A stretch of DNA of 61,520 nucleotides, from assembly GCA_036266555.1 (NCBI GenBank), contig DATAMW010000030.1, forward strand, positions 1 through 61,520. Direction: 5' to 3'. The translations under genes and the position numbers were made by a program. Each line of letters opens with the position of its first letter. The first letter of the stretch is position 1. Below, piece after piece: positions 19,448-58,890 of the stretch. This DNA comes from Patescibacteria group bacterium. Lineage in GTDB: Bacteria; Patescibacteriota; Doudnabacteria; UBA920. The notes below the pieces were generated by a model. That model was not told where the DNA came from, ran no database searches, and was given only the letters and a program-made list of their open reading frames with translations.

Positions 19448-19460
19448 TTCTATATAATTT

Positions 19461-28490: not shown

Positions 28491-28531
28491 TAAGTTAATA
28501 AAAAGTCAGAGTTCGAAACAAAAACAAATAA

Positions 28532-33529: not shown

Positions 33530-33531
33530 TG

Positions 33532-33554
33532 TGATATGCTTAATATAAGCATAT
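33532..33554 (+). terminator. Hairpin after G1 (weak terminator)
   Basis: GATATGCTT-aatat-AAGCATATC (9-bp AT-rich stem) followed by TTTAAAT. Confidence 0.4.
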
Positions 33555-33585
33555 CTTTAAATAGAGTAGAAATTAAAATAAACAT

Positions 33586-34062
33586 ATGGAGCAAGTTAAA
33601 ATAAAACAATTGTTAACAGTCATTGGGGCATTTATTGTTGCTGGTTTAGTAGTGGCTGTGGGAACAGTGATCTATAAAAAATATGTAGCACCAACACCAG
33701 TGGCTATTAAATTGCCAGTGCAGCAAAAAGATTTGCCAGTGAATCAAGTGCCAGAAAAATTCCCTACAGACGTGCCAATAGAGACTGGCGCAACCATTAC
33801 TCAAAATTACAATGCCACAGCTGATGATGGTCGTTTTCAGGCCACTCGTGCTTTTGAAACCAACAAATCTTTGGCAGAGAACCTGACCCTTTACACAAAC
33901 TATTTGAAAGCTGGCGGTTGGACTCTTAACCCTGTAATTGATCAAGATATGTTTAAATTAATATCAGGCAGTAAGGGTAATCAGCAAATCCAATTTGCTA
34001 TGACTGAAAACAATGTGTCGCATAAAAAAACTGTGACTATTTCCTTAACTGAAATTAAATAA
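33586..34062 (+). CDS. Small N-terminally membrane-anchored protein, family member S2
   Basis: A TM helix, then VPEKFPTDVPIETGATITQNYNATADDGRFQATRAF. A close paralog of S1. Confidence 0.7.
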   Translation: MEQVKIKQLLTVIGAFIVAGLVVAVGTVIYKKYVAPTPVAIKLPVQQKDLPVNQVPEKFPTDVPIETGATITQNYNATADDGRFQATRAFETNKSLAENLTLYTNYLKAGGWTLNPVIDQDMFKLISGSKGNQQIQFAMTENNVSHKKTVTISLTEIK

Positions 34063-34066
34063 TATT

Positions 34067-34555
34067 ATGATGAACAAGAAATTACTTATTGCTGTTGGGG
34101 TTTTGGTAATCGCAGCTGCGGCTCTAGCAGCAATTTACTTTTTTCATATTAAAAAAAATCAACCAAAACCTTTTGCAGTTGAAACAAAAACTTTAGACGC
34201 TGCTGTTTTGCCAAGTGGTTTTCCAAAAAACATGCCAATCGAAGCTGGCTCAACAGTGTTGCAAAACTACGAGGCCACTACCACAGATGGCAGAAAACAG
34301 TCTACCCGAGTTGCTACTACGAACAAAACTTTAACCGCAGCACTGAAAGACTATTCAGATTATTTTGTGCACTTAGGATGGACATTAATTCCTAATACAG
34401 ATGCTGCAACCAATACTACTAGCGCCCTATTAAGATATCAAGATAGAATATTAGTCATTAGCGGCAGTACAAATGATGCTACAAAACAAAACAGTGTTTC
34501 TTTAACTTTGACTGAATCATTTGTACAAGCCCCAGCTAGTAATATTAAGAAGTAG
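34067..34555 (+). CDS. Small N-terminally membrane-anchored protein, family member S3 (more divergent)
   Basis: A TM helix, then GFPKNMPIEAGSTVLQNYEATTTDGRKQSTRVA...HLGWTL. Same layout as S1 and S2. Confidence 0.65.
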   Translation: MMNKKLLIAVGVLVIAAAALAAIYFFHIKKNQPKPFAVETKTLDAAVLPSGFPKNMPIEAGSTVLQNYEATTTDGRKQSTRVATTNKTLTAALKDYSDYFVHLGWTLIPNTDAATNTTSALLRYQDRILVISGSTNDATKQNSVSLTLTESFVQAPASNIKK

Positions 34556-34564
34556 TAAAAGCAT

Positions 34565-37500
34565 ATGCTAAAACAAAACTTTAAATTCATAACCACTAGA
34601 CTAGTCAGCTTGTTAATGACAGTCGCTATCTCTGCAGGAGCAATTACTGCTGGGACTTTTGTTGCGCCAAATATTGCGCATGCTAGCTGTAATCCAGCAA
34701 CTCAAGAGCAAGATTATCAATCTCCAACTGTATCTGTGTCTCAGCCAACTGGCACCTATACAGATCCTGGTACTATTAACATTGCGATTTCTGGCCAACT
34801 CACTTACTACTGTGAAGGGGATGTTCCTCCTGGCGGCGGCGGATTTGGTTATCAGAATACAGCCACTGCAGTAAATTACCGCATTACCCGTGACTCTGAT
34901 GGCACCGCGCTGTTTAATCAAACATGGCATTCCCCAAGTTGTGATGACCCTTTGGCTTGTCTTCCTGGACCATATAATATTTCCGATGGAGCCAATGCTT
35001 CGGCATGGGAATCAGGTGCTTACACCATCAGAGCTGATGTATATGATAATACCCTTCATTCCACTGGAGCGATCGTTAATACCAGCACTAATCACTTTAC
35101 AGTGCAACAAACTCCAGGCGCTCCCGGGTATGAAATTCGAGGTAGCCTAGGTATTAATAGTGTTAATCCAAATCCAGCAGACACATCTGTGACTGTAACT
35201 GGAACCGGTGTTGGCGGCTATTGGTCTCGCGGTGGACCACGTTGTTATCAAGGGTCTAACCGTTCCGAAGCGTTCATTCGCATGCAGTTAGTGACCACTA
35301 CTCCAGCTAATGGGCCATACCCTCCTGGATCCAGTGCCATTATTAACGCTGCTTACCACAATACTCCAGTTCCAAATTATCCGACTACTTATAAAGTAGA
35401 TGGAGTGAATGCTGGCGTTTATCCGTTAGCACTTAACGAGGCTGGCAGTGATGTTCCTGGAGACCCAGCTTGTGACACAGTGCCAGACCCAATGACCTAC
35501 ACATTTAGTTTCCCAATTAATACTGCGGGACTAAGCGGTGGCAATCATACAGTGACTGTGTATGCTTGGGATGAATCCACACAAACAGAAATTTCTTCTA
35601 CAACTACTTTTGCAGTGCAGCACAATGCATTAATTTGTGATGCAACTCATACTGTTCAAAGCGGTACCCCTGCTCAATATTCTGTGGGTATGACTGGTAA
35701 TCCATCTGGCACTATCAGTGTGACTATGTCGAGCAACCCAAGCGGCCCACAAATGACTAATAGCCCATTGAGTTTAAATGCTGGCAATAGTTTTACTGGA
35801 GTTGCTAATGTTTCTACTGCTGGCTTAGCAGCAGGAACCTATAATTTAACTTTCACAGGCATGCCTGGGTCTTTCACCTGTGCTGCCACTTTAATTGTTA
35901 CTGCAGTGCCATCGGCGCCACAAGTAGATATTAAATTTAATGGCAGTGATGCTCCTCCGCCACTAAGCTCTGGCACAACCAGTGGCACCATTAGTTGGGG
36001 GAACCAAAATGTAGTTGGTTGTACTGCTTCTTCTAGTTCTAATCCAGCTGGGCGCGACGCAGTGCTTAGCCCAGTGTGGAATGGTTCATATAACGTCAGC
36101 CCAGCAGGAAATGGTTCGCAATCTGTATCTGGATTACAAGATAACACCACTTACACTTTTGTATTAAACTGTACAGGTGTGGCAGGTAGCAATCCATCTT
36201 CGGACTCTGATAACGTAGTGGTCAGTATTGGATCGTCTGCTCCAGTGCTTAACCCTTCTGCTGACATTAAATGTAATGGCAGTGATGGACCATGTACTAT
36301 CCCAAGCGGGACTAGTGCAATTTTAACTTGGACATCCACCAATACAGCAGGCAATTGTACTATTACCAATATTCCTGGTGCGCAACCGTTAAATAATCCA
36401 AGCCCTGGAATTACTACAGGCAACTTAACTAACCCACCAGGCAGTTACGATTATACTATCACTTGTCCTGGAGTAATGGCTGGTAGCTCGCCACCTAACG
36501 GCACTGACAATGTGCACATCAACGTGACTGCGGCACCACCAGTTCAACCATTTGCAGATATAAAATGTTCTGACAGTCCAAGCTCGGGCCCTAGCGATGG
36601 TCCATGTTATGTAACGCGCGGATCTGTTGGCTATCTAACTTGGGCATCATCAAATACTACTAGCTGTACTTTGTCGGAAAATGGGCAGAATCCAGGTTTT
36701 GCATCTTTGAATCGCCCAGCACCGTATCACACTGATTCAATTGATGTTGATACTACATTTACTTTAGCTTGTACTGGTCCTGGAGGTTCGACTTCGGATT
36801 CAGTTACCTTCATTGCAGTGGATGGCAATCCGCCGCCAAGCGTTGATTTAAAATGTATTGGCGACAACGGGCAAACTTCGGATGGTCCATGTGCGGTGCA
36901 AAGTGGCAATGTTGGTCATTTAACTTGGACTTCTAGTCATGCAGATAACTGTACTATGAGTAGAGATGGCGGCGGCCAATCATCTGTGGCAACCAATCAA
37001 GGTGCTCCGGGTATGGCTACGCCAACGTTAACTGCTAATACCAGTTATACAATTACCTGTTCTGGACCAACAAGTCCAGTAGCAACCGATTCAGTAACAT
37101 TTACTATCACTCAAACACCTCCTCCTCCTCCTGGCGGCGGCGATGATTTTACTTTGGCTTGTACTCCAGCAGCAGTGACTATCCATCCTGGTGACTCAAC
37201 TGCATTCCAGATTAACACTACCAAAGTTGGTAACTTTAACGACTATGTAGTTATCTCTGTACAAACATTTATTCCTACGCCTAGTCATCAAGCGCAAATT
37301 AGTTTTAGCGGCAACAATCAAATGCCTTCTGCTACTACGACTGCGTTAGTTACTACTGATGGCACCACTTCTCTTGGTTCCTACACTGTTGTGTTCCAAG
37401 GTGATGGCGGCGGGATTAATAAAACTTGTAACGTAGTTTTGAATATTGTTGATAGTTCTCCTCCGCCCCCACCACCACCTCCACCACCTCCTGCAGCGCC

Positions 37501-38305
37501 GCGCGCGCCGTCAGTGTCTGCTGATGTATCGCAGTGTGGTAAGGTAACTGTGAATTGGAGTCCAAATCCTCCTCCAACACCATCAAGTTATAATGTGTAT
37601 CGTGGTAATAACTCGAATCCATTCTCTGGTTCTTGGCAATTAATTGCGAGCGTACCAGAACCAGGCCGTTCCTTTACTGATAACGCCCCGGCCACTAGTA
37701 ACAACTATTATAGAGTTGAAGCTGTCACCTCTGGAGGCTCAGCGTCTTCTGGAGCTGTCTTAGGCAACATGTCTCCATGTGTACCGAACATTAATGCTTC
37801 GGACAAAGATTTAACTAGTGTTTCTGGTTTAATTACTAAAAACTTTGCGTTACATCCTTGTAACGGTACTTCTGATGTAGCTAGTTTGCCAGTGAATACC
37901 GTGTTTGCCATGAATGATAAAGTGACTTTCCGCATCAATGTTTGTAACGATGGCCCTGGTGCTTTAACCGGAGTTACTGTTGCGGACACATTAAAGAATC
38001 TTACTAATCCAACTTTTAGTAACCTGTCTCCTTGTGTCACTGGTCATAGTTATAATCCGGGACAAAACACTATCAAATTTGCTTTGAATAATGTTGCTCC
38101 TGGTAATGTAGTGCGCCAAGTGTGTACTATTGAATTTACTGCGACAGTTACAGCACCAGCAGTAACAACCGCTGCGCTGTATCGATTCCAAAACATTGCT
38201 GATATTTCTTCTAAAGAATTACCAGTGAAGCGCGTGATGACTCCGCCATATTTGTTTAGCGTTACAGGCGGTGTTCCAGATAGAACTGAAACCGCGCCAC
38301 AGTAA
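34565..38305 (+). CDS. Giant secreted surface protein G2 (1246 aa), paralog of G1
   Basis: Signal peptide ending IAHA|SC. The head is collinear with G1 (for example ASCNPATQEQDYQSPTVSVSQPTGTYTDPG, RSEAFIRMQLVTTTPANGPYPPGS). Four B-type modules (DIKCNGSDGPC...), one or two A-type modules, a P11 tract, FN3-like and DUF11-like tail. Ends VPDRTETAPQ. Confidence 0.8.
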   Translation: MLKQNFKFITTRLVSLLMTVAISAGAITAGTFVAPNIAHASCNPATQEQDYQSPTVSVSQPTGTYTDPGTINIAISGQLTYYCEGDVPPGGGGFGYQNTATAVNYRITRDSDGTALFNQTWHSPSCDDPLACLPGPYNISDGANASAWESGAYTIRADVYDNTLHSTGAIVNTSTNHFTVQQTPGAPGYEIRGSLGINSVNPNPADTSVTVTGTGVGGYWSRGGPRCYQGSNRSEAFIRMQLVTTTPANGPYPPGSSAIINAAYHNTPVPNYPTTYKVDGVNAGVYPLALNEAGSDVPGDPACDTVPDPMTYTFSFPINTAGLSGGNHTVTVYAWDESTQTEISSTTTFAVQHNALICDATHTVQSGTPAQYSVGMTGNPSGTISVTMSSNPSGPQMTNSPLSLNAGNSFTGVANVSTAGLAAGTYNLTFTGMPGSFTCAATLIVTAVPSAPQVDIKFNGSDAPPPLSSGTTSGTISWGNQNVVGCTASSSSNPAGRDAVLSPVWNGSYNVSPAGNGSQSVSGLQDNTTYTFVLNCTGVAGSNPSSDSDNVVVSIGSSAPVLNPSADIKCNGSDGPCTIPSGTSAILTWTSTNTAGNCTITNIPGAQPLNNPSPGITTGNLTNPPGSYDYTITCPGVMAGSSPPNGTDNVHINVTAAPPVQPFADIKCSDSPSSGPSDGPCYVTRGSVGYLTWASSNTTSCTLSENGQNPGFASLNRPAPYHTDSIDVDTTFTLACTGPGGSTSDSVTFIAVDGNPPPSVDLKCIGDNGQTSDGPCAVQSGNVGHLTWTSSHADNCTMSRDGGGQSSVATNQGAPGMATPTLTANTSYTITCSGPTSPVATDSVTFTITQTPPPPPGGGDDFTLACTPAAVTIHPGDSTAFQINTTKVGNFNDYVVISVQTFIPTPSHQAQISFSGNNQMPSATTTALVTTDGTTSLGSYTVVFQGDGGGINKTCNVVLNIVDSSPPPPPPPPPPPAAPRAPSVSADVSQCGKVTVNWSPNPPPTPSSYNVYRGNNSNPFSGSWQLIASVPEPGRSFTDNAPATSNNYYRVEAVTSGGSASSGAVLGNMSPCVPNINASDKDLTSVSGLITKNFALHPCNGTSDVASLPVNTVFAMNDKVTFRINVCNDGPGALTGVTVADTLKNLTNPTFSNLSPCVTGHSYNPGQNTIKFALNNVAPGNVVRQVCTIEFTATVTAPAVTTAALYRFQNIADISSKELPVKRVMTPPYLFSVTGGVPDRTETAPQ
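37460..37492 (+). repeat. In-frame poly-proline (P11) tract in G2
   Basis: cct ccg ccc cca cca cca cct cca cca cct cct, read directly. Confidence 0.9.
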
Positions 38306-50067: not shown

Positions 50068-50084
50068 AACTTTCATATAAAAAA

Positions 50085-50106
50085 ACGCCCGCTCGGGTGT
50101 TTTTTT
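50085..50106 (+). terminator. Intrinsic terminator after clpP
   Basis: ACGCCC-gctc-GGGTGT followed by T7. Confidence 0.65.
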
Positions 50107-50118
50107 GCCATAAAAGCG

Positions 50119-50147
50119 TTGACAATAAGCCATTTTTCTGCTATAAT
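50119..50147 (+). promoter_or_regulatory. Consensus sigma70 promoter (TTGACA-17-TATAAT) for the HTH / tail-fibre-like / beta-helix operon
   Basis: -35 TTGACA at 50119-50124, 17-nt spacer, -10 TATAAT at 50142-50147. This is the best promoter match in the window. Confidence 0.65.
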
Positions 50148-50231
50148 AGTTATAGAAAGTATCGGTTAGCCGAGCAGTATAGCCAAAATTAGCTATTTTG
50201 CTTAGAAATACAAACAAAAACACAATTTTAT

Positions 50232-50495
50232 ATGTCAGAGCAGCAAAAACTTCTGCTTTCACAGCCTCAGAATCTAATTTCTATGGCGAAAGTAGCGAAG
50301 TTAACCCCATATTCTGCTGAATATTTATCGTTACTATCTCGCAAGGGGCGTATTCCAGCAATCAAGATCAACCGCGACTGGCTAACTAGCCGTCAGGCGG
50401 TTTTGTCATATGTGGCTGAGCAAAAGAAAAAGCATGAATCATTGCTCAAGCGGTTTGATAGCTCTGCTGCCTTAGAAAATGGAGGGACACGATAA
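50232..50495 (+). CDS. Small helix-turn-helix protein (excisionase/MerR-like HTH_17-type)
   Basis: LISMAKVAKLTPYSAEYLSLLSRKGRIPAIKINRDWLTSRQAVLSYV resembles the excisionase-family DNA-binding HTH. Its stop overlaps the next start (TAATG). Confidence 0.6.
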   Translation: MSEQQKLLLSQPQNLISMAKVAKLTPYSAEYLSLLSRKGRIPAIKINRDWLTSRQAVLSYVAEQKKKHESLLKRFDSSAALENGGTR

Positions 50496-53400
50496 TGCCA
50501 GAGATTACTATCAATTTAATCCATGATTTGAGAAAGTCTCATGCGCTTAAAAAACCCAAGCCACCTTTTTTTGGTGGGCTGCGAACAGGTTATGTTCGTG
50601 CTTGGGTTTTTGTGGTGCTTAAAGTTTGGTTGATCGTTGCTTTAATCAACGGCGTTACCACCATGGATAAAATTGAAAGAAATATGGCATTGCTAGATAG
50701 TTATATTCGCAATGATTTTTCTCAACCTGAAATATTTTTTCCAAACCAACCTCAGACTACATTAGCAATTGGAAAATTCCATAAACCAAAATCATCAAAC
50801 TCATTGCAAACGAATTCTGGTGTGTTTATGCCACGCGGCCCTGAGCTAGCAACTGATAACAATGAAGAAGGAACAGTGGCTGGAGATTTTACTGCAAGCT
50901 CATCTAGTACACAAAGTATTGTTTCCTCAGCTTCTTCTGCGTCGCTAGTATCAGTACCGCCTTCGCCAGCCCAGGCAACTTCAGGGAATAGTTCTGCTGC
51001 AGCGCTGACAAATGTTACTGAACAATTTGTGCAGCAGACTGTGCAATATTCTTTAGCGCAATCAATTAACTTTGGATTCATATTAGGCAACGGCACAGCA
51101 TTGCGCGGTTGTTTGTTCGCAGACCAATACGGAATTATTTCTGGGAGCGGACGCCGTTGTACAACTGGCGGCGGGGGAAGCAGTAGTTCTGGTGGCGGTA
51201 CTGTGAGCATGGCTATAGGGGACGCAGTTACAGGTGCTACTCAAGGCTCAGTCTTATTTGCTGGAGCTAGTGGAGCGCTTGCCCAAGACAACACTAATTT
51301 CTTTTTTGATGATTCAACTAACAGCTTAAGTCTTGGTGGCAACTTAACTGTGGCCGGCCTTGGCGGTAGCGGCATCAGATGTTTGCAAACTGATAACACT
51401 GGTGCAATTTCTGTAGCCGGTGCATCTTGTGGTTCTGGTGGCAGCCAAACTCCGTGGACAGCCCCAATCGATGCTGATGGATTTGCAGTGACCAACTCAA
51501 CCGGATTTAACGGCTTAGTAGTTACTCCGAATAGCGGCGTAATTACGACTGGAACTTGGAATGGCACTACAATTGCCGTAGCCAATGGCGGCACAGGAGG
51601 TACATCATTTACATCTAATGGAGTGGTGTATGGCAATGGCTCATCTCCATTACAAGTTACAGCTCAAGGCGGAGCGAACACAGTGCTTGTGGCAAACAAT
51701 GGTGCACCAAGTTTCAGTTCGTCCATCACAGTTGGTACAAGTGTTACTTCTCCAACGGTTAACGCAACAACCGCGGTACAAATTAATGGCGCCAACATTA
51801 ACACTGCTGGCACTTTAAATAATGTTGCTTACTTAAATCAAGCGAATAATTTTGTAGCATCAAGTACTGTTGGAATTTCATATACAAACAGTTCTGGGCA
51901 TGCGTTAATGAAGGTTGATGCTGCTAGTGCGTCTCAAGGTGGATATTACATTTACAAAGCTGGAGTAGAAAAAGCGCAACTGGCTGTGTTGGGATCTTCA
52001 AATGATTTAACTTTCAATATGGCAGGCACTCCTCACATGACTTTGCAGGCTGCTGGTAACTTGGGTATTGGCGATGCATCTCCAGCCGCTATGCTAACTG
52101 TAGGTAACGGCGACTTATTCCAAGTCAATAGTAGTGGTGCAATTGCTGCAGCCACTGGCATCACTTCTTCTGGAACAATTACTCTTTCTGGTTTAGGCGG
52201 CGGCGGTGTACAGTGTGTGCAAACTTCTAACACTGGTGTGTTATCTGCGGCCGCTTGCGGTGGCAGCGGAGGAATAACAATCGGCACAACCGCAATCACC
52301 AGCGGCACTAACGGTCGTGTACTGTATGACAACTCTGGCGTTGTCGGGGAAATGACAACTACTGGTTCAGGCACAGTATTAGCTTTGGCAACTAGCCCAG
52401 CATTTTCTACATCAATTTCTACACCGTCTATTGTAACCGCTTCCGGTGCATTAACTGTTACTCCAGCCGCTGGCTCTAATTTAAACATAAACCTCTCTAC
52501 TACTGGTGACTTTGCGGTTAATACAAATCAACTCTATGTTGATACTTCAACTGGAAATGTTGGGATTGGCACCGCTAGTCCTAGTAGCTTATTAACCGTT
52601 GTGGGTACTGGTGCTAGCGATAGTGCTATTACCATAGGCCCAACTACTGCGTCTGATGGTAATGCAACTTTGTATCTAAATGGTAAGAATGGAGGCACTA
52701 CTTATCAAGCAAGTATATATTCTAGCTATCTTGGAGCATTACTTATAGCACCGAATGCTGCTGACCCTTCGGTAATTATCGGCGGTGCGGATTATGTAAA
52801 TGGGAATATGCTAAATGTTTTTGGGAGAGCCGCGATAGGTTCGACATATGCAGCTTCGGCCGCTCCAACTGATGGGATGATTATTGAAGGCAATGTTGGC
52901 ATTGGCGATGCTACTCCAGTTGCCATGTTTACTGTTGGCGCCGGCGACTTATTCCAAGTCAACTCTTCTGGTGCAATTGCTGCTACCACTGGCATTACAA
53001 CTACTGGTGCTTTAAATACTTATGTTGGCGGTGGTGCAGATATCTTTAATGCCTTTGACACTAGTGACAGCAATAATCCAGTTGCTACCATGTACATTGG
53101 TTCTGACAGTGGAATCATGGAATTAGGTGGCGGTGGAACATTAGACCAAATTCATTTAAGTGGTGCTGGAGGTGGATCGTCATATTTCAGAAACAGCCTT
53201 GGGATTGGCACGGATACCCCTGGCTATTTGTTACATGTAGCAGAAAACACTAGCAATGGCTCTAGCTCTATCACCGCAAATATGACGCCGACTTATGATT
53301 ACAGTTCAAATGGCTCCCATCCACAAACTGTTCTTTGGGCTCAGCCGGTAATTACAGGTAGTGCAAATAATACTGGCACAATTCGCGCCTTCAATGCACT

Positions 53401-55105
53401 CGCTGATGACAACACCAATACAGGTGTACTGACCAAAGTGATTGGTGCTGAATTAGCAACAGAAAACAATGATGCAGGTACAATAATCAATGCTTATGGT
53501 TCATATAATAGAGTAGATAAAAATTACACTGGCCCAATCACTACAGCTTATGGAACCTATTCCGCGGTCAACAATAATAATGCTACGAATGCAATCACTA
53601 CAGCTTATGGTTTATATTCTGGCGTCAATAATTCTGGTACTATCGATACTGGGTACGGTTTGTATATTAATGACATTCAAGCTACAACAGGTTACGGAGT
53701 ATATCAGTCAGGCAGTAGTAACAATAACTACTTTGCTGGCGCTGTTGGCATAGGCACAGCTACCCCTGACTATATGTTAGATGTAGCTGGAGATATGGGT
53801 ATAGGTGATGGTTCTTCTCCAGGAACAATTTACGACAACTCAGGTTCGACTGATAGAATTGAATTTTCAAATACTGGTGCAGCCGTTAGTGTAATTTCCG
53901 CGGGAAGCACTTTCTTTACTGCTAATGGAACCGGTGGGGTTATGGATTTCAATCCTAACCAAGAAAATATAGACTGGAGAGTAAGATCAAATGCAACTAC
54001 CTATTCACTAACTGTTAATGGCTTAACAGGTCATGTTGGCATTGGCACTAATAGTGCATCAGAACAGTTAACCGTTGGTGGGAACATTACAACTGAAACA
54101 AGTGATTATGGCAATGGAGCTGCGGGCCCAATTATTATTCTTGGTCGCAACAACAATGGCACTACTGGCGCTGGTAGTGTGAACTTCCAAAGCAAAGCTG
54201 GTACTGCTGGTTACGTGTGGCAAGATAACGCTGGCAATTTAAGAATAAATACTTCTGCACCAACCAACGCGCTAGACACAGCAGGGGTAGTAGTAGGAAC
54301 TCAAACTTCTACTCGTAACACCAAACAAGATATTACAGATTACACAGACTATGCTGCTGCTTTGAACATGGTCACCAGTGCGCCGCTGCATACTTTCCGT
54401 TACATCAAGGATGTTCATGGTTATGGCGCAAACAGCCCATTGGCAAAACCACACATTGGTTATATTGCAGACGAAGTGCCTGCAGATTTTATGTGGGGTA
54501 ATTCAATTGACCAAGTTTCTGTTAATGGTATTTTGATGGCCAGCATAAAAGCATTAAATGCAAAAATTACAGATTTGCAAACTGCTAGTGCAAATCCAAA
54601 CTTGTTTGCATCTGATACGCCAATTATTTTGCAATCACAATTATACTTGTCTGGAGATAATGTTGGTGAAGCGAAAATTTTAGCTGGTCAAAAATCTGTG
54701 CACGTGAGTTTTGTTAAAAATTATCAGTATCAACCAATTGTTACTACAACCCCAGAAGGCCGTGTTGGCAGCGAGTACTGGGTGAGTGACAAGGACGAAT
54801 CCGGCTTCACTATATACATAGATCAGGAAGCTAGCGATGACATTGTCTTTGACTGGCATTCTTTTGCAGGGCAAAGCGCTAAGTTAACTGTGTCTGATGG
54901 ATCTACATCAAACATTGAATTAGTGGTGGCAAGCGCCCCTGTGGCTCCGCCCGCTGGTACTCCGCCATCTGAGCCAACTCCACCAGAGCCAGCGGATTCT
55001 GGAACAGTTGCTGGGGATACAACACCGCCAGATTCTGGGACCGACGGTGGAGTTATAACCCCACGTGGCGATGCACTCCCTGCAGATTCGCAACCAACTG
55101 AGTAA
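50495..55105 (+). CDS. Membrane-anchored giant tail-fibre-like protein (1536 aa) with a peptidase-S74-type intramolecular chaperone domain
   Basis: N-terminal TM helix (WVFVVLKVWLIVALINGV). G/S/T/A-rich body with recurring (N/S)(L/V)GIG(T/D)A(S/T)P..(L/M)(L/F)TV motifs. Near the C-terminus, TSTRNTKQDITDY...PHIGYIADEVPADFMW...NGILMASIKALNAKITDLQ matches the endosialidase-chaperone (S74) pattern with a Ser-x4-Lys dyad. Confidence 0.7.
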   Translation: MPEITINLIHDLRKSHALKKPKPPFFGGLRTGYVRAWVFVVLKVWLIVALINGVTTMDKIERNMALLDSYIRNDFSQPEIFFPNQPQTTLAIGKFHKPKSSNSLQTNSGVFMPRGPELATDNNEEGTVAGDFTASSSSTQSIVSSASSASLVSVPPSPAQATSGNSSAAALTNVTEQFVQQTVQYSLAQSINFGFILGNGTALRGCLFADQYGIISGSGRRCTTGGGGSSSSGGGTVSMAIGDAVTGATQGSVLFAGASGALAQDNTNFFFDDSTNSLSLGGNLTVAGLGGSGIRCLQTDNTGAISVAGASCGSGGSQTPWTAPIDADGFAVTNSTGFNGLVVTPNSGVITTGTWNGTTIAVANGGTGGTSFTSNGVVYGNGSSPLQVTAQGGANTVLVANNGAPSFSSSITVGTSVTSPTVNATTAVQINGANINTAGTLNNVAYLNQANNFVASSTVGISYTNSSGHALMKVDAASASQGGYYIYKAGVEKAQLAVLGSSNDLTFNMAGTPHMTLQAAGNLGIGDASPAAMLTVGNGDLFQVNSSGAIAAATGITSSGTITLSGLGGGGVQCVQTSNTGVLSAAACGGSGGITIGTTAITSGTNGRVLYDNSGVVGEMTTTGSGTVLALATSPAFSTSISTPSIVTASGALTVTPAAGSNLNINLSTTGDFAVNTNQLYVDTSTGNVGIGTASPSSLLTVVGTGASDSAITIGPTTASDGNATLYLNGKNGGTTYQASIYSSYLGALLIAPNAADPSVIIGGADYVNGNMLNVFGRAAIGSTYAASAAPTDGMIIEGNVGIGDATPVAMFTVGAGDLFQVNSSGAIAATTGITTTGALNTYVGGGADIFNAFDTSDSNNPVATMYIGSDSGIMELGGGGTLDQIHLSGAGGGSSYFRNSLGIGTDTPGYLLHVAENTSNGSSSITANMTPTYDYSSNGSHPQTVLWAQPVITGSANNTGTIRAFNALADDNTNTGVLTKVIGAELATENNDAGTIINAYGSYNRVDKNYTGPITTAYGTYSAVNNNNATNAITTAYGLYSGVNNSGTIDTGYGLYINDIQATTGYGVYQSGSSNNNYFAGAVGIGTATPDYMLDVAGDMGIGDGSSPGTIYDNSGSTDRIEFSNTGAAVSVISAGSTFFTANGTGGVMDFNPNQENIDWRVRSNATTYSLTVNGLTGHVGIGTNSASEQLTVGGNITTETSDYGNGAAGPIIILGRNNNGTTGAGSVNFQSKAGTAGYVWQDNAGNLRINTSAPTNALDTAGVVVGTQTSTRNTKQDITDYTDYAAALNMVTSAPLHTFRYIKDVHGYGANSPLAKPHIGYIADEVPADFMWGNSIDQVSVNGILMASIKALNAKITDLQTASANPNLFASDTPIILQSQLYLSGDNVGEAKILAGQKSVHVSFVKNYQYQPIVTTTPEGRVGSEYWVSDKDESGFTIYIDQEASDDIVFDWHSFAGQSAKLTVSDGSTSNIELVVASAPVAPPAGTPPSEPTPPEPADSGTVAGDTTPPDSGTDGGVITPRGDALPADSQPTE

Positions 55106-55117
55106 TTATTTCAAAGT

Positions 55118-58100
55118 ATGAAATTTTTAACACTAAAATCTATATTTTCAAAAACCGCAATCGCATTGTTGGTTCTTGTAGTTGTAGTTAGCGTTGGAAA
55201 TCTTGCAGACCTATCTAAGGTGAGCGCAACTGGAACTCCAACAGACCCTAACTCTACTGGGTATTCTTGGTCAGACATGACTTGTACGCTAAACGCTGGG
55301 GTAAGTTGTGCTGGTGGTGTTGTGACTCGAACAGCAGCGAGCAGTGGTTATGGTGCTGCATACGCCCAAGCTAATCAAACTATTCAATACGGCACCGGTG
55401 CCGTCGCGGTACAAATTAATTCTATTAATGATGTATTTAGATTTGGATTAACTAATACAGGAACTTGGAATATCTTGCCATCAGCAATCACTGCTCCAGA
55501 TCCAAGCAGTGATGAAACTAGTTCCACTGCTCCAACTTTTGGTTTTTCATTCAGTGGTTCAGGGAACTATCGAATTTGGAATCAAGAGTCTGGCAGATTG
55601 TTCAATGTTGATTCTGGAAATGGAGTATTCCAAGCAGGTGACTGGGCAATTGTTTATTCTGATGAAGGAACTGTAAAGTATTATCGAGATCACGCTGGTT
55701 CGCTAACACTTTTGTACACTAGCGACTTCAATCCAGTTTCGCCGTCTTACCCATTGCTGCCACAGATTTCTATCAGTACTAACGGCGCTGCGGAAACAGT
55801 AAAAGTGTTGCAGCCAAAAGCATTTGGTAGCTCTGGAACAGTGTACGTGGCAACAACAGGAACCACATATGGGGCTGGCACTTTGGCTGACCCAATTACT
55901 TTAACTGCTGCTATCGACGGTAGTCGCCCTGTTTGTGGTAGTAGTGGTAATAATGATATTACCATTGCTGATGGTACCTACACTGCACCTTTCACAGCAC
56001 GCGTGAGTGGTAGTTCAGGCACCCTTTGTAAAATTCACGCCACGAATATCACCTATCCACCTTCTGTAAAAATTACTAATGCCACTAATGATATTAGTAT
56101 TACTGTAAGTGGGGACTATGAACAATGGAAAGATGTTGAAATTTATAACTCCAGTACTATTCGTACTACCACACAAGCTGGGGCTAGTACTGAAGCCACA
56201 ATTGACACTCATCGAAATGATGGTTGGCGCAGCGATGGCACCGGGAACCAAATAATCAACTCTGTAATTCATGACGAAGTTAACGGCATAGTTTCTCAGA
56301 CTCATGGCGGCACTATTGCTAGAGGGAATATTTCTTACAATAATGGTTTTAGTGCGAGCGATGGTGGAGCAGGCCACTGTGCTTATGTGCACAACACCAC
56401 AGATGTAGACAGATCGTATTTAAATAACAACGTGTTCTTTGGCTGTTATGGTTTGCAAATGCAATACTATAACCAAAATGGAGGGGACGAGACTGGTAAT
56501 ATGACTTTTGATAGAGACGTGGCTATTGGTGGAATGTTTGGAATTTTAGGACAAGGTCCAAAAACAGATATTGATGTAACCAATACCCATGTTTATAAAG
56601 GTAGCTTAACCTTAGGTTATTCAAATGAGATCAATCATACTGGCGGGGTATTTGATCATGATTATGTATATGGAGTCACGCCAATGCAAGTTAAGACTTG
56701 GGCCGGATTCAGTATCACAAATAATAAAATTGTAGAACAGGCAAATGGTGGTAATCGCATGATGGTGATGAATCAAAAAACTGGTACACCGCTTGGCTCA
56801 TATACTTTTACTGGCAATACTTATTATCGTGGATTAACAGGGAGCTGTCCTGGTGCTTGCCAAGAATTTACCATTTTAGATCAAAACGGAACTTCTCCTG
56901 TGGACTATACCATTGCTCAATGGCTGGGTTTGGGCTTTGATTCCGGCTCAACTTTTTATGATACTGCTAACGAAGCAGGAACTCCATATGGGACAGGCGT
57001 GGCAGTTCGTCCAAACACAACTGATGTATATGTAAACCCAAATGCTGACCAAGTCGGTCGTGCTAACGTGGTAATTTGGAACTGGCCATTGGCTAATAAC
57101 GTTAATGTTAACTTGTCTACTTCTGGATTAACCAACGGGCAACATTATGATGTGTACTCGGTTATATCCGGTAAAAAATTAATTTCTCAAGGTACATATA
57201 ACTCCAGTTCACCGACTGTATCATTCCCAATGAATACAGATGATGCACCTATTGCCCCAATAGGAGATTCTGGTTCAACTATTACTACAACCTTGCCGGA
57301 ATTCGGTGTGTTTGTGGTAATGCCAGGAACTAGTACAGACACCACTAACCCAACTGTTTCAATTACTGCTCCAGCCAACAGCGCCACGGTTTCTGGTTCA
57401 AGTGTCACTGTTTCTGCAAATGCTTCTGACAACGTTGGTGTGGTTGGTGTGCAATTTAAATTAGACGGCTCTAACTTAGGTTCCGAAGATACTTCAGCAC
57501 CGTACTCCATTACTTGGGACAGTACTGGAGCGTCGAATGCCAGTCATGCGTTGACTGCAGTGGCGCGTGATGCCGCGACCAATTCTACTACGTCGTCTAC
57601 TATTACTGTTACAGTGGATAATACACTTCCTACTGTTGCCACGCCGAGTATTTCTCCAAATGGCGGATCATTCAGCAGTGCGCAGTCTGTGACTCTCTCG
57701 ACAGTAACTTCTGGCGCAACCATCCGCTACACCACAGATGGCACTACGCCAACTTCTAGTTCAGGTACAATTTATAGTTCAGCTTTCTTAGTTTCGTCTA
57801 CAGCAACTGTAAAAGCTATTGCGTACAAAAATGGGAATACTGATAGCTCTGTTGCATCCGCATCCTTTACTATCACCATTCCCGCTGTAGTAGCGGATCC
57901 AAGCATTTCCCCGAACGGTGGATCGTTTAGTGATACACAATCCGTGACTCTCTCTACCGTAACTTCTGGCGCTAGCATCCGATACACCACAGATGGCACT
58001 ACGCCAACTTCTAGCTCAGGTACTGTCTACAGTTCAGCATTCAGTATTTCGGCTACAACTACTGTGAAAGCCATTGCCTACAAGAGCGGAGATATTGATA

Positions 58101-58822
58101 GTTCTGTTGCATCAGCAACGTTCACTCTTGCTTCCAGCGGAGGCGGCGGTGGAGGCGGAGGGTCGTCCGGTAGTGGCGGCGGATCTTCAGGCGGCGGTGG
58201 AAGTGGTGGTAGTGGCGGTGGCGGTGGAGTGAATCCTCCGCCAGTTATCCTCCCGCCATCAACAGTCACTGTTCATTTGGTGAATGCTCAGGGAACATTG
58301 TATTTAATTCAGAGTGGTTATAAAAAAGGGATTCCATCACCTGATATTATGCGTTCATGCGGATTCGACTTTACAGATGCTGTCTCTGCTTCTCCTGCAG
58401 ACTTAGCATTACCTACAAGTGTACTCTTGCCTTGTGGGGGCATAACGATGAAAGATTATGTACATAAAACTATTTATCAAATATTTTTGGGCGAGAAGCA
58501 TCCGTTTACGTCTCGCAATGTATTTTCAGGGCTAAGCTTTAAATTCCCTTCGGTGTTTACATTCCCGAACACAACTGTTCAAAGTTTGCCGGACGGGGCG
58601 CCGATAGGAAGTGCCTCTCAGCATCATGCTCCACAAACAGACATTGTTATTAATGGAACGGTTTATTGGATTGATGGCGATTCGATTAGGCATCCTTATC
58701 CATCAACAATAATTTGGAATTCTTGGCATAAGGACAATGATTATTCTTCAGCTGTGACTGCGAATCAATTTGATATTGCTTTGCCAGTTGGTCATGATGT
58801 GCCATTGCGAGTGTATCAGTAA
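55118..58822 (+). CDS. Giant secreted protein (1234 aa) with a right-handed beta-helix-like (pectate-lyase/depolymerase-like) region, an Ig-like domain, two CHB_HEX_C-like repeats, a Gly-rich linker and a triple C-terminal repeat
   Basis: Signal peptide. Region ~55.8-56.8 kb has short N/G/T-rich turns (NNGFSASDGGAGHC, NNNVFFGCYG). The Ig-like segment DTTNPTVSITAPANSATVSGS...DNVGVVGVQFKLDG...APYSITWD resembles a bacterial Ig domain. Two SISPNGGSF...IRYTTDGTTPTSSSG copies resemble CHB_HEX_C. Confidence 0.65.
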   Translation: MKFLTLKSIFSKTAIALLVLVVVVSVGNLADLSKVSATGTPTDPNSTGYSWSDMTCTLNAGVSCAGGVVTRTAASSGYGAAYAQANQTIQYGTGAVAVQINSINDVFRFGLTNTGTWNILPSAITAPDPSSDETSSTAPTFGFSFSGSGNYRIWNQESGRLFNVDSGNGVFQAGDWAIVYSDEGTVKYYRDHAGSLTLLYTSDFNPVSPSYPLLPQISISTNGAAETVKVLQPKAFGSSGTVYVATTGTTYGAGTLADPITLTAAIDGSRPVCGSSGNNDITIADGTYTAPFTARVSGSSGTLCKIHATNITYPPSVKITNATNDISITVSGDYEQWKDVEIYNSSTIRTTTQAGASTEATIDTHRNDGWRSDGTGNQIINSVIHDEVNGIVSQTHGGTIARGNISYNNGFSASDGGAGHCAYVHNTTDVDRSYLNNNVFFGCYGLQMQYYNQNGGDETGNMTFDRDVAIGGMFGILGQGPKTDIDVTNTHVYKGSLTLGYSNEINHTGGVFDHDYVYGVTPMQVKTWAGFSITNNKIVEQANGGNRMMVMNQKTGTPLGSYTFTGNTYYRGLTGSCPGACQEFTILDQNGTSPVDYTIAQWLGLGFDSGSTFYDTANEAGTPYGTGVAVRPNTTDVYVNPNADQVGRANVVIWNWPLANNVNVNLSTSGLTNGQHYDVYSVISGKKLISQGTYNSSSPTVSFPMNTDDAPIAPIGDSGSTITTTLPEFGVFVVMPGTSTDTTNPTVSITAPANSATVSGSSVTVSANASDNVGVVGVQFKLDGSNLGSEDTSAPYSITWDSTGASNASHALTAVARDAATNSTTSSTITVTVDNTLPTVATPSISPNGGSFSSAQSVTLSTVTSGATIRYTTDGTTPTSSSGTIYSSAFLVSSTATVKAIAYKNGNTDSSVASASFTITIPAVVADPSISPNGGSFSDTQSVTLSTVTSGASIRYTTDGTTPTSSSGTVYSSAFSISATTTVKAIAYKSGDIDSSVASATFTLASSGGGGGGGGSSGSGGGSSGGGGSGGSGGGGGVNPPPVILPPSTVTVHLVNAQGTLYLIQSGYKKGIPSPDIMRSCGFDFTDAVSASPADLALPTSVLLPCGGITMKDYVHKTIYQIFLGEKHPFTSRNVFSGLSFKFPSVFTFPNTTVQSLPDGAPIGSASQHHAPQTDIVINGTVYWIDGDSIRHPYPSTIIWNSWHKDNDYSSAVTANQFDIALPVGHDVPLRVYQ
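57644..58131 (+). repeat. Tandem in-frame duplication (255-nt period) encoding two CHB_HEX_C-like domains
   Basis: ccgagtatttctccaaatggcgga... at 57644 recurs as ccaagcatttccccgaacggtgga... at 57899. There are long identical stretches, for example acaccacagatggcactacgccaacttctag. Confidence 0.85.
58134..58230 (+). repeat. Gly/Ser-rich low-complexity linker
   Basis: SSGGGGGGGSSGSGGGSSGGGGSGGSGGGGG, encoded by GGN/AGY-rich DNA. Confidence 0.9.
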
Positions 58823-58833
58823 TAATATTTGTG

Positions 58834-58862
58834 AAGACGCTGCCAAGCAGCGTCTTTTTTAT
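58834..58862 (+). terminator. Intrinsic terminator ending the surface-protein operon
   Basis: AAGACGCTGC-caa-GCAGCGTCTT followed by T6. Confidence 0.8.
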
Positions 58863-58877
58863 TTGGACAGATTTCGG

Positions 58878-58883
58878 TATACT
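58878..58883 (+). promoter_or_regulatory. -10 box (TATACT) 7 nt upstream of the ATG (leaderless-type)
   Basis: TATACT at 58878-58883, ATG at 58891. Confidence 0.4.
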
Positions 58884-58890
58884 ACTGAAT

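What the first reader, a model, noticed from the sequence alone, without database searches (positions are those of the whole stretch)
50119..58862. Stand-alone operon of an HTH protein, a membrane-anchored tail-fibre-like giant and a beta-helix depolymerase-like giant, without other phage genes
A perfect TTGACA-17-TATAAT promoter (50119-50147) drives three genes that end at a strong terminator (58834-58862). The first is an 87-aa excisionase-like HTH protein. The second is a 1536-aa protein with phage tail-fibre hallmarks: recurring GIG(T/D)A(S/T)P..L.V motifs and an S74 intramolecular-chaperone domain. The third is a 1234-aa protein whose centre looks like a right-handed beta-helix, the fold of phage tailspike depolymerases and pectate lyases. 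The flanks are housekeeping genes (clpP upstream; exonuclease and glycosylase downstream). I see no integrase, capsid, terminase, baseplate or tail-tube genes. This looks like domesticated phage receptor-binding hardware used as a cell-surface apparatus. Plausible roles are recognising and digesting host-cell surface polysaccharide, although a degraded prophage end remains possible.
Basis: partly seen in the sequence, partly recalled or inferred. Interest (0 to 1): 0.72.

Follow-up and report, generated by a model that had tools for sequence, protein, structure and literature searches.

The report
Membrane-anchored host-binding fibre operon of Patescibacteria
This is a chromosomal operon of an ultra-small (Patescibacteria/CPR) bacterium, not a prophage remnant; it encodes a tail-fibre-like surface fibre with a small DNA-binding partner and a sugar-degrading-type enzyme, and it is a good candidate for how these epibionts recognise their host cells.

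Summary
A 12/12 sigma-70 promoter, three co-oriented genes and a strong terminator sit between clpP and an RNase T-like exonuclease. The whole 61.5-kb Patescibacteria contig carries no phage genes.

The prophage reading fails. The HTH+fibre pair lies at the same chromosomal site in four other genomes. In about 20 related loci the HTH stop overlaps a giant's start by 1 or 4 nt, and in at least 8 loci the two are fused (HTH, membrane helix, fibre).

Gene 2 is an N-in membrane-anchored fibre. It has six VGIGTxxPxxxLxV motifs, an S74 self-cleaving chaperone with Ser1272/Lys1277 conserved, and a conserved C-terminal domain. Its closest known kind is the Bdellovibrio MAT prey-recognition fibres.

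Gene 3 is secreted: a lectin-like domain, a right-handed beta-helix (AF2 pLDDT 84.6), Ig-like domains and three C-terminal repeats. One syntenic genome has the same tail on a different beta-helix head.

New here is a conserved 5' leader. It has a TATCGG box after the -10, which I read as the likely HTH operator, and a covarying hairpin with a CAAAAYNA loop. Rfam has no match.

Verdict: a new variant of a known kind. Function is inferred, not shown.

The parts
50085..50106 (+). Hairpin plus T7 after clpP: a terminator-like end of the upstream unit
   Evidence: Read from the sequence. Not reported by the scan because its loop is short.
50119..50147 (+). Sigma-70 promoter, TTGACA-17-TATAAT with extended -10 TG
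   Evidence: 12/12. Promoters scoring 11-12 of 12 sit at the equivalent place in 11 of 15 related loci.
50157..50169 (+). 5' box AAGTATCGGTTAG, about 9 nt after the -10; candidate operator of the HTH
   Evidence: Unique exact match in the window. The regex A[AG]TATCGGNT[AG] lies within 400 nt upstream of 25 of 26 HTH domains of the close subfamily (domain E<=2.4e-28) and of none of the 20 significant distant ones. Arrays of 19-bp-spaced related boxes lie next to solo HTH paralogues.
50172..50203 (+). Leader hairpin GAGCAGTATAGC-CAAAATTA-GCTATTTTGCTT with the conserved loop CAAAAYNA
   Evidence: 87.5% of cells are paired against 54% in shuffles, 10/10 pairs show compensatory changes, and slid controls give 30-41%. 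The covariance model hits window 50174-50201 at 34.2 bits. No Rfam match.
50205..50222 (+). A-rich pre-start element GAAAYAAAAAYA; a generic translation-initiation-type motif of this genome
   Evidence: 14 matches against 4.6 expected, several just upstream of other start codons.
50232..50495 (+). Gene 1: 87-aa HTH_17-type protein, the cytoplasmic partner of the fibre
   Evidence: Its stop overlaps the gene-2 start (TAATG).
50495..55105 (+). Gene 2: 1536-aa N-terminally membrane-anchored tail-fibre-like (MAT-like) fibre
50600..50662 (+). Transmembrane signal-anchor (about aa 36-56), preceded by a conserved basic cytoplasmic peptide (aa 1-35)
   Evidence: Alignment A5 and hydropathy. N-in topology is inferred from the positive-inside rule.
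54308..54529 (+). S74 intramolecular chaperone/protease; predicted cleavage at Ser1272 with Lys1277
   Evidence: Pfam. Ser and Lys are invariant in A4. PDB profile hits.
54617..54904 (+). Conserved C-terminal domain (about aa 1375-1470, FDWHSFA motif), followed by an acidic Pro-rich tail carrying GTVAGD
   Evidence: AF2 gives a beta-sandwich here at only moderate confidence (pLDDT 60-78).
55118..58822 (+). Gene 3: 1234-aa secreted multidomain beta-helix protein, 13 nt after gene 2
55265..55867 (+). Lectin/glucanase-like beta-jelly-roll domain (about aa 50-250)
   Evidence: AF2. Foldseek hits to SPRY, GH16 and legume-lectin-like folds.
55955..56917 (+). Right-handed parallel beta-helix (about aa 280-600)
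   Evidence: AF2 strand pattern. Foldseek hits GH87 glucanase, Dettilon tailspike, K64-1 depolymerase and alginate lyase. Distant homologues P0224 and P0225 hit Pfam Beta_helix.
57350..58123 (+). Big_7 Ig-like domain and two CHB_HEX_C_1/Fn3_assoc domains
58250..58819 (+). Three ~55-aa C-terminal repeats after a Gly-rich linker; putative envelope-retention module
   Evidence: 47% identical to the tail of the L005 third gene. No Pfam or PDB match. The retention function is inferred.
58833..58862 (+). Intrinsic terminator closing the operon

Best explanation
This is a vertically inherited Patescibacteria operon for a host-contact surface apparatus.

Shown:
- A near-consensus promoter.
- An ~84-nt conserved leader.
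- Three genes and a terminator.
- Gene 1 (HTH) and gene 2 are translationally coupled here and fused in relatives.

Inferred, step by step:
1. The fibre inserts with its N-terminus in the cytoplasm and one membrane helix.
2. Its ~1,450-aa extracellular part trimerises from the C-terminus under control of the S74 chaperone.
3. The S74 domain cuts itself off at Ser1272, together with the C-terminal domain and the acidic tail. This exposes a T5-L-shaped-fibre-like tip that binds a host-cell surface glycan.
4. The small HTH protein docks on the fibre's conserved cytoplasmic peptide. When free, it binds the TATCGG box at about +1 and represses its own very strong promoter.
5. Gene 3 is exported by a signal peptide and retained by its C-terminal repeats. 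It uses a lectin-like domain and a beta-helix head to bind or cut polysaccharide at the contact site.
6. The beta-helix head is exchangeable between lineages.
For: Cellular and conserved:
- Synteny YmdB-MTase-NERD-NusA-ClpP-HTH-fibre-(gene 3)-RNaseT-HhH-GPD in the window, L001 and L005; the upstream part, through the HTH (and in L008 the fibre's N-terminus), is also matched in L006 and L008, whose loci end inside the giant ORF.
- 38 GTDB loci, almost all Patescibacteria.

HTH-fibre unit:
- 1- or 4-nt stop/start overlaps with giants of 879 to more than 2,670 aa that carry an N-terminal membrane helix.
- Fusion proteins P0010, P0017, P0083, P0116 and P0125. P0116 has HTH + TM + S74 + the same C-terminal domain in one chain.
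- An exhaustive HMMER search finds 1,313 representative clusters. Many have 2-3 tandem HTH copies and/or lengths of 1,000-4,700 aa.

Fibre:
- S74 Ser/Lys invariant.
- PDB profile hits to phage tail fibres, MyRF and Bdellovibrio MAT fibres 8ol4 and 8ond.
- Six capping-loop-type motifs and three Cys pairs.
- The MAT family description is in PMC10769870.

Operator idea:
- Box and HTH-subfamily co-occurrence is 25/26 against 0/20.
- The box sits right after the -10.
- 19-bp box arrays lie beside solo HTH genes.

Gene 3:
- AF2 and Foldseek.
- P0034, 52% identical, sits in a Wza/Polysacc_synt locus.
- L005 has a different head on the same Big_7 + repeat tail at the same site.

Literature: large surface proteins with glycan-binding domains are essential in a cultivated Saccharibacterium (PMC10633639) and are proposed host-recognition factors (PMC13059738).
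Against: - No experimental data exist for any step.
- AF2 of the fibre's C-terminus failed (pLDDT 40), so trimer, tip fold and cleavage are inferred from sequence only.
- The HTH alone is below the Pfam threshold and has no PDB sequence relative. DNA binding is not shown.
- The 5' box could be an RNA 5'-end element or simply co-inherited with the gene rather than an operator.
- Equimolar coupling of a repressor to a structural protein is unusual.
- Foldseek TM-scores for gene 3 are low (0.2-0.3 global), and no catalytic residues were identified, so it could be a non-enzymatic adhesin.
- Gene 3 is absent from L001, so the 'bind and digest' pairing is optional.
- The host and lifestyle of this MAG are unknown.
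Confidence: 0.6

Rival explanations
1. Contact-sensing device. HTH, membrane helix and fibre form a trans-envelope one-component signalling unit, working like ToxR/CadC or like membrane sequestration of Mlc by PtsG. Engagement of the fibre tip with a host changes how the cytoplasmic peptide holds the HTH, and so switches transcription on attachment.
For: - Fusion and coupling of a DNA-binding-type domain to the cytoplasmic end of an extracellular fibre.
- Tandem HTH copies (P0071-P0073).
- Another giant, P0025, carries two integrase SAM-like DNA-binding-type domains at its N-terminus.
- A conserved cytoplasmic peptide, aa 1-35.
- A conserved box at the promoter.
Against: - Within the 61.5-kb window the exact box occurs only at the operon's own promoter, so no wider regulon is visible.
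- There is no evidence that a single helix transmits a signal over a >1,400-aa fibre.
- S74 cleavage acts at the far extracellular end and cannot release the HTH, unlike in MyRF.
Confidence: 0.14
2. Self-directed envelope structure. The fibre is a structural coat, cell-cell cohesion or phage-decoy element of the Patescibacterium's own envelope, not a host-recognition device. Gene 3 remodels the cell's own exopolysaccharide.
For: - A gene-3 core homologue lies in an EPS synthesis/export locus.
- The position among housekeeping genes is conserved.
- EPS genes matter in Southlakia (PMC10633639).
Against: - The fibre middle and tip are highly variable between syntenic genomes. Only about 20-30% of the query is covered at 35-59% identity, while flanking genes are 70-94% identical.
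- IMC type (S74 versus G2-like) and beta-helix heads are swapped.
- This is the pattern of diversifying receptor-binding proteins, as in MAT fibres and phage RBPs.
Confidence: 0.13
3. The HTH is a non-DNA-binding adaptor, like the RodZ HTH that binds MreB. It links the fibre base to a cytoplasmic partner such as the cytoskeleton, a secretion ATPase or pilus machinery. The 5' box and hairpin are then RNA-level elements.
For: - Stoichiometric coupling or fusion fits a structural subunit better than a regulator.
- The same contig encodes a RodZ-like HTH_25-TM-RodZ_C protein, showing this architecture in the organism.
- The hairpin covaries with G-U pairs, which indicates RNA.
Against: - HTH_17/excisionase-type domains are DNA binders.
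- Iteron-like 19-bp box arrays lie beside solo paralogues that have no fibre.
- Box and HTH subfamily co-occur strictly.
Confidence: 0.1
4. Degraded prophage or tailocin end: leftover receptor-binding genes of an integrated phage.
For: - S74 and beta-helix folds are common in phage RBPs.
- The HTH has weak excisionase PHROG hits.
Against: - No phage gene on the whole contig.
- Identical insertion context in five genomes.
- GC of the genes equals that of the contig.
- No PHROG hits for the giants, almost no relatives in phage genomes and one weak relative in IMG/VR.
- The family is widespread in Patescibacteria chromosomes.
Confidence: 0.03

Closest known systems
Bdellovibrio bacteriovorus MAT (mosaic adhesive trimeric) fibres, S74 subgroup (Caulton et al. 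2024, PMC10769870)
   Same: - Large cellular, not phage, fibre proteins on the surface of a bacterium that lives on other bacteria.
- Repeated capping-loop motif V-G-G/N-pi-x-x-P-x-x-x-L. Here it appears as VGIGTxxPxxxLxV, six copies.
- C-terminal S74 self-cleaving chaperone with a Ser...Lys motif.
- One conserved end for retention and a variable distal end.
- The profile of the window's C-terminal region hits MAT structures 8ol4 and 8ond.
   Different: - MATs have a cleavable signal peptide and a conserved ~130-aa beta-rich N-domain that binds an unknown outer-surface element. Gene 2 has a cytoplasmic peptide, a membrane helix and a different juxtamembrane domain.
- Gene 2 has a coupled or fused cytoplasmic HTH, which MATs do not.
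- Gene 2 has an extra conserved domain and an acidic tail after S74.
- The organism is probably monoderm.
- Neither the main text nor the held supplements of that paper mention Patescibacteria.
Phage tail fibres and tailspikes with S74 intramolecular chaperones (T5 pb1 L-shaped fibre, K1F endosialidase) and beta-helix depolymerases
   Same: - S74 domain with its dyad, with best PDB hits to T5-type fibres.
- A fibre plus beta-helix gene pair with swappable heads.
- Foldseek hits to tailspikes and depolymerases.
   Different: - No virion to attach to. The N-terminal adaptor is replaced by a membrane anchor.
- No sequence-level relatives among phage genomes.
- Chromosomal, syntenic and vertically inherited.
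MyRF (myelin regulatory factor), a membrane-bound transcription factor with an S74-type ICA domain
   Same: A DNA-binding domain, a membrane helix and an S74/ICA domain occur in one functional unit. The MyRF ICA domain is hit at 8.4e-7.
   Different: - In MyRF the order is DBD-ICA-TM, with DBD and ICA on the same side, so cleavage frees the DBD.
- Here the order is HTH-TM-fibre-S74, so cleavage is extracellular and cannot release the HTH.
- The DBD types are unrelated.
Membrane-anchored HTH proteins (RodZ; ToxR/CadC-type one-component regulators)
   Same: N-terminal cytoplasmic HTH, a single membrane helix and an extracytoplasmic C-terminal part. A RodZ-like gene is on the same contig.
   Different: - A different HTH family: HTH_17 against XRE or OmpR-winged.
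- An extracellular part more than 1,400 aa long and fibre-like.
- In this locus the HTH is a separate, coupled polypeptide.

Membership tests
Peptidase S74 / intramolecular chaperone auto-processing domain (Pfam PF13884) | Match to the family model at or above the curated threshold | tested here: met
   22.5 bits against a cut-off of 22, which is borderline. Backed by a profile-to-PDB search with E 6.7e-9 to 2.5e-5 against four S74/ICA-bearing structures. Fused relative P0116 scores 43 bits.
Peptidase S74 / intramolecular chaperone auto-processing domain (Pfam PF13884) | Catalytic Ser-Lys dyad spaced S-x-x-x-x-K (SDxxxK) | tested here: met
   S1272-T-R-N-T-K1277. Ser and Lys are invariant in seven family members. 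The usual Asp at +1 is Thr here and Asp in P0003.
Peptidase S74 / intramolecular chaperone auto-processing domain (Pfam PF13884) | Trimerisation-dependent self-cleavage | not testable with these tools
   The AF2 monomer model of the region failed (pLDDT 40). Protein expression is needed.
MAT fibre family (Bdellovibrio, PMC10769870) | Signal peptide followed by the conserved ~130-aa beta-rich N-terminal retention domain | tested here: inconclusive
   Gene 2 starts with a 35-aa basic peptide and an uncleaved-looking membrane helix. That differs from a cleavable signal peptide. No MAT N-domain sequence was available for a direct comparison.
MAT fibre family (Bdellovibrio, PMC10769870) | Long stalk with repeated capping-loop motif V-G-G/N-pi-x-x-P-x-x-x-L | tested here: met
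   Six [VL]GIG[TD]xx[PA]xxxLxV copies. The profile region holding this motif aligns to Bd2439 and Bd2133 structures at weak E-values of 0.0069 and 0.43.
MAT fibre family (Bdellovibrio, PMC10769870) | Surface display and binding of prey/host glycans | not testable with these tools
   Needs microscopy and glycan binding assays.
Prophage / phage tail module | Neighbouring phage structural, packaging or integration genes, or att repeats | tested here: not met
   None on the 61.5-kb contig. The flanks are the same housekeeping genes in five genomes.
Prophage / phage tail module | Sequence relatives in phage genomes or phage protein families | tested here: not met
   No PHROG hit for either giant. 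Two weak Thermus-phage hits for the fibre C-terminus and none for the gene-3 core. One weak IMG/VR hit for the HTH.
HTH_17 / excisionase-type DNA-binding domain (Pfam PF12728) | Match to the family model at or above threshold | tested here: inconclusive
   The window protein scores 20.7 bits against 27. Homologues P0072 and P0073 score 41.6 and 49.5 bits. P0017 carries a precomputed PF12728 hit.
HTH_17 / excisionase-type DNA-binding domain (Pfam PF12728) | Works with an integrase as a recombination directionality factor | tested here: not met
   No integrase in the window or in syntenic loci. The invariable partner is the giant fibre.
Right-handed beta-helix polysaccharide lyases/hydrolases (pectate-lyase fold; GH87, tailspike depolymerases) | Right-handed parallel beta-helix fold | tested here: met
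   AF2 pLDDT 84.6. Foldseek probability is 1.0 to GH87 (7c7d, 6k0m), the Dettilon tailspike and alginate lyase 6kfn, and 0.99 to the K64-1 depolymerase structure 9k4a. Distant homologues hit Pfam Beta_helix.
Right-handed beta-helix polysaccharide lyases/hydrolases (pectate-lyase fold; GH87, tailspike depolymerases) | Family-specific catalytic residues or a CAZy family signature | not tested
   Global TM-scores of only 0.2-0.3 and 8-13% identity.
Known structured RNA families (Rfam 15) | Covariance-model match of the 5' leader | tested here: not met
   Nothing at the gathering score. Nothing meaningful at E<=10 in 50080-50260.

The most novel reading that the evidence does not exclude
The HTH, membrane helix and tail-fibre unit is a contact sensor. 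A phage-fibre-like adhesin is wired through a single membrane helix to a DNA-binding module that sits on the operon's own promoter box. Host attachment is therefore read out directly as a transcriptional switch in an ultra-small epibiont. The conserved leader hairpin, with its CAAAAYNA loop, is a new cis-regulatory RNA in the same circuit.
Probability: 0.13. Interest if true: 0.85.

Novelty: new variant of a known kind. Interest (0 to 1): 0.62.

Why it matters
How Patescibacteria (about a quarter of bacterial diversity) find and hold their host cells is stated in recent papers to be largely unknown (abstract of PMC12206443, listed). So far only type IV pili and unspecified large adhesins are implicated (PMC10633639, PMC13059738).

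This locus defines a recognisable and widespread module:
- a small HTH_17-type gene;
- an overlapping start codon;
- a membrane-anchored S74 or G2-type fibre;
- a conserved C-terminal domain;
- often a swappable beta-helix enzyme.

The module can be searched for, compared with host range, and knocked out in cultivable Saccharibacteria. It extends the Bdellovibrio MAT-fibre idea to a second, unrelated bacterium-on-bacterium lifestyle. It also adds two features not described for MAT fibres: a cytoplasmic DNA-binding partner, and a conserved promoter-leader with a covarying hairpin.

Tried and rejected
- GTDB scan with the fibre's N-terminal domain alignment (A5) confirmed no hits. The scan with the HTH alignment worked.
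- AF2 of the fibre's C-terminal 351 aa gave pLDDT 40 and was not used for fold search.
- phmmer or profile searches against the PDB found nothing for the HTH, the fibre C-terminus as a single sequence, or the gene-3 repeats.
- PHROGs had no hit for either giant.
- RNAalifold on the MAFFT leader alignment predicted no pairs, because the 3' arms were out of register. Anchoring on the loop showed the helix.
- Rfam gave no match.
- Literature searches for Patescibacteria with tail fibre, S74, HTH or MAT found no description of this module.
- Rejected the prophage-remnant reading (see rivals).
- Rejected GAAACAAAAA as a specific element. It is a generic pre-start motif in this genome.
- Rejected the hairpin as a terminator. 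There is no consistent U-run after it.
- A 'PRG[DE]' C-terminal sorting signal was considered. It is present in only five members and no hydrophobic segment follows it, so I did not pursue it.
- A covariance-model hit at window 24442-24469 looks like an ordinary terminator hairpin.

Full report
**1. What is there**

The window is one whole 61,520-bp contig of a Patescibacteria (CPR) metagenome-assembled genome. Gene 2 is in public databases as 'tail fiber domain-containing protein [Patescibacteria group bacterium]', and the same locus is on a JGI contig.

- 50232-50495, 87 aa
- 50495-55105, 1536 aa
- 55118-58822, 1234 aa

The promoter at 50119-50147 is a 12/12 consensus with an extended -10. 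The terminator at 58833-58857 has an 11-bp stem. A hairpin plus T7 after clpP isolates the unit.

NusA and ClpP lie upstream. An RNase T-like exonuclease, an HhH-GPD glycosylase and the 16S rRNA gene lie downstream.

The rest of the contig encodes FtsK, a RodZ-like protein, RecA, six T4SS-pilin-domain proteins, FtsH, SMC, two further giants, TrmD, L19, SOD, AhpC, RNase Y and YmdB. It has no phage gene.

**2. Not a prophage; a conserved chromosomal module**

A related 788-kb contig (L001) has the same gene order from SOD/AhpC to HhH-GPD, with an 82-aa HTH and an 1873-aa fibre at the same place. The order YmdB-MTase-x-NERD-NusA-ClpP-HTH-fibre also holds in L005, L006 and L008. Flanking proteins are 70-94% identical, but the fibres match only in parts. 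In L002 the pair follows rpoB-rpoC.

A scan of GTDB species representatives with an HTH alignment gave 38 loci, nearly all Patescibacteria: MAGs labelled Saccharibacteria, Doudnabacteria, Gribaldobacteria, Nealsonbacteria and Paceibacterota.
- In about 20 loci the HTH ORF (76-136 aa) overlaps by 1 or 4 nt a giant ORF (879 to more than 2,670 aa) that begins with a membrane helix.
- In 8 loci the HTH is the N-terminus of the giant itself.

An exhaustive HMMER search with the HTH found 1,313 representative clusters. Many have two or three tandem HTH copies, and many are 1,000-4,700 aa long. P0116 carries HTH, membrane helix, fibre, S74 and the same C-terminal domain in a single chain.

By contrast:
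- the giants have no PHROG match;
- tblastn against 50,697 phage genomes gives two weak hits for the fibre's C-terminus and none for the gene-3 core;
- IMG/VR holds one weak HTH relative.

GC content of the genes equals that of the contig.

**3. Gene 2**

The N-terminal 35 residues are conserved and basic. Residues ~36-56 form the only strongly hydrophobic segment. A conserved juxtamembrane stretch, a Ser-rich linker and a Cys-loop domain follow. I infer N-in, C-out topology.

The body is rich in Gly, Thr, Ala, Ser and Asn. It carries six [VL]GIG[TD]xxPxxxLxV motifs. This is the capping-loop motif that Caulton et al. derived for Bdellovibrio MAT fibres and also found in MyRF (PMC10769870).

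Pfam S74 is at threshold. However, Ser1272 and Lys1277 are invariant in the family alignment. The profile of the last 351 aa hits in the PDB:
- a T5-type L-shaped tail fibre (6.7e-9)
- another tail fibre (1.8e-8)
- the MyRF ICA domain (8.4e-7)
- a long-tail-fibre tip (2.5e-5)
- weakly, Bdellovibrio Bd2439 and Bd2133

After S74 comes a domain (aa ~1375-1470, FDWHSFA) that is conserved in every complete giant of the close loci. It is also present where S74 is replaced by a module with a GRVPVKV motif. That module hits Pfam Peptidase_G2 only weakly (E 0.0084).

The structure prediction of this region failed. Trimerisation and cleavage are therefore inferred.

**4. Gene 1**

The HTH is 66-76% identical among three genomes whose fibres have diverged much more. 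It belongs to HTH_17 by transitivity. It has no integrase partner.

Its constant partner is the fibre. That, together with the fusions, argues that it acts at the fibre's cytoplasmic end.

**5. A conserved promoter-leader (found in passing, but part of the unit)**

In the window and 11 of 15 related loci there is an 11-12/12 promoter. About 9 nt after the -10 comes the box AAGTATCGG(A/T)TAG.

The box lies upstream of 25 of 26 HTH domains of the close subfamily and of none of the 20 significant distant ones. It occurs once in the window.

Next to three solo HTH paralogues, related TATCG(G/T)TTA boxes form arrays with 19-bp spacing. I therefore read the box as the HTH's operator. At that position it would act as an auto-repressor site. 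This is inference.

Downstream lies a hairpin whose loop CAAAAYNA is conserved while the stem differs from locus to locus.
- Over 26 leaders the best loop-anchored hairpin has 8.5 pairs, against 3.9 +/- 2.0 in shuffles.
- In a 12-sequence loop-anchored alignment, 87.5% of cells pair (54% in shuffles, 30-41% when slid). All ten pairs show compensatory changes, including G-U.
- I chose those 12 sequences for having 8-nt loops, which biases the test somewhat.
- A covariance model also finds non-training leaders (L010, L017, L018, L019, L022). It finds a second site upstream of a CAP-domain gene in L013.

Rfam has no match. The A-rich GAAACAAAAA element before the start codon is generic in this genome.

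**6. Gene 3**

Gene 3 begins 13 nt after gene 2 with a signal-peptide-like N-terminus.

AF2 (pLDDT 84.6) shows a beta-jelly-roll, a right-handed beta-helix and a beta-sandwich. Foldseek's best matches are GH87 alpha-1,3-glucanases, phage tailspikes and depolymerases and an alginate lyase for the helix, and SPRY, GH16 and lectin folds for the jelly-roll. Global TM-scores are low.

Then follow Big_7, two CHB_HEX_C_1/Fn3_assoc domains, a Gly-rich linker and three ~55-aa repeats without database matches.

Only about a dozen sequence relatives of the core exist among 5.8 billion proteins. One, 52% identical, lies in an exopolysaccharide synthesis and export locus of a higher-GC bacterium.

L001 has no third gene. 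L005 has one at the same place, with a different beta-helix-like head. I judged that head by eye from its repeat pattern, with no Pfam support. Its Big_7 domain is 75% identical and its C-terminal repeats 47% identical to those of gene 3. So the fibre + beta-helix pairing recurs, with head swapping on a conserved tail.

**7. Interpretation**

The best reading is a host-contact surface apparatus of an epibiotic bacterium. It is analogous and partly homologous to Bdellovibrio MAT fibres. It is anchored in the cytoplasmic membrane rather than on an outer surface, is tied to a cytoplasmic HTH, and is often accompanied by a glycan-active beta-helix protein.

The sequence facts, conservation, coupling, fusions, motif counts, covariation and the gene-3 fold are shown. 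Topology, trimerisation, self-cleavage, host glycan binding, enzymatic activity, HTH-DNA binding and HTH-fibre docking are inferred.

The general idea that very large surface proteins of Patescibacteria mediate host recognition is already published (PMC10633639, PMC13059738). I found this particular architecture and its leader in none of the searched literature.

I rate it a new variant of a known kind, with interest 0.62.

Noticed in passing
window 50148-50231; also L001, L002, L005-L027 upstream of the HTH genes: Conserved promoter-leader: the box AAGTATCGGNTAG just after the -10, then a hairpin with a covarying stem and the conserved loop CAAAAYNA. Rfam has no family for it.
   Followed up: partly
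L014:15902-15982, L015:7871-7984, L016:7650-7880: Iteron-like arrays of TATCG(G/T)TTA boxes at 19-bp spacing in three related loci. In L015 and L016 they lie just upstream of solo HTH paralogues not followed by a giant; in L014 the array lies just downstream of the giant, near the locus end. They resemble the single box at the operon promoters.
   Followed up: partly
L013:6280-6360: A second leader-like element (promoter, hairpin GATGAGC-CAAAATTA-GTTCATC, then GAAACAAAAA) upstream of a 448-aa CAP-domain secreted protein. A gene of similar size (443-452 aa, not annotated here) also precedes the HTH in L021, L023, L025 and L026. The hairpin motif may be broader than the HTH operons.
   Followed up: partly
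window gene 2 aa 126-131 and 1503-1508 (nt ~50870 and ~55001); family members P0004, P0005, P0008, P0010, P0016, P0083, L021, L025, L026: A short linear motif G-x-V-A-G-[DE] recurs in the acidic C-terminal tails (13 of 27 proteins against 0.9 expected) and in the juxtamembrane linker (8 of 27 against 2.8 expected). Its function is unknown. It could be a processing or recognition site.
   Followed up: partly
proteins P0005, P0010, P0011, P0014, P0016, P0018, P0024, P0083, P0125; L023, L025, L026: Some family members replace S74 with a different pre-C-terminal module (GRVPVKV motif; weak Peptidase_G2 hit, E 0.0084) in front of the same C-terminal domain. Two phage-type auto-processing chaperones therefore look interchangeable.
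   Followed up: partly
L005:12087-14654: At the syntenic site, a third gene has a different beta-helix-like head on the same Big_7 + Gly-linker + three-repeat tail as window gene 3. This is head swapping on a conserved anchor.
   Followed up: yes
window 15887-20306: Six consecutive genes, each with a T4SS_pilin domain. One (16697-17920) also has a purple-acid-phosphatase N-domain.
   Followed up: no
window 27916-38305: A second surface-protein cluster: giants of 1665 aa (28532-33529) and 1246 aa (34565-38305, DUF11), interleaved with ~160-aa proteins of unknown function (27916-28395, 33586-34062, 34067-34555). Two of these starts (28532, 33586) and 27916 are preceded by the GAAAYAAAAA motif.
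   Followed up: no
window 6112-7185: A RodZ-like protein (HTH_25 + RodZ_C, with a Glucodextran_B-like insert). It is another cytoplasmic-HTH / extracytoplasmic-domain protein on the same contig.
   Followed up: no
window, 14 sites (e.g. 14562, 27893, 28515, 33569, 50205): GAAAYAAAAAYA is enriched (14 matches against 4.6 expected) and often lies 10-20 nt before start codons. It may serve as a non-Shine-Dalgarno initiation signal in this organism.
   Followed up: partly
protein P0025 (2652 aa): A fibre-family giant whose N-terminus carries two phage-integrase SAM-like (DNA-binding-type) domains instead of the HTH.
   Followed up: no
window 58831-58890: The mechanically listed GTG start of the RNase T-like ORF overlaps the operon terminator. 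The conserved part begins about 20 codons later, so the true start is probably downstream.
   Followed up: partly
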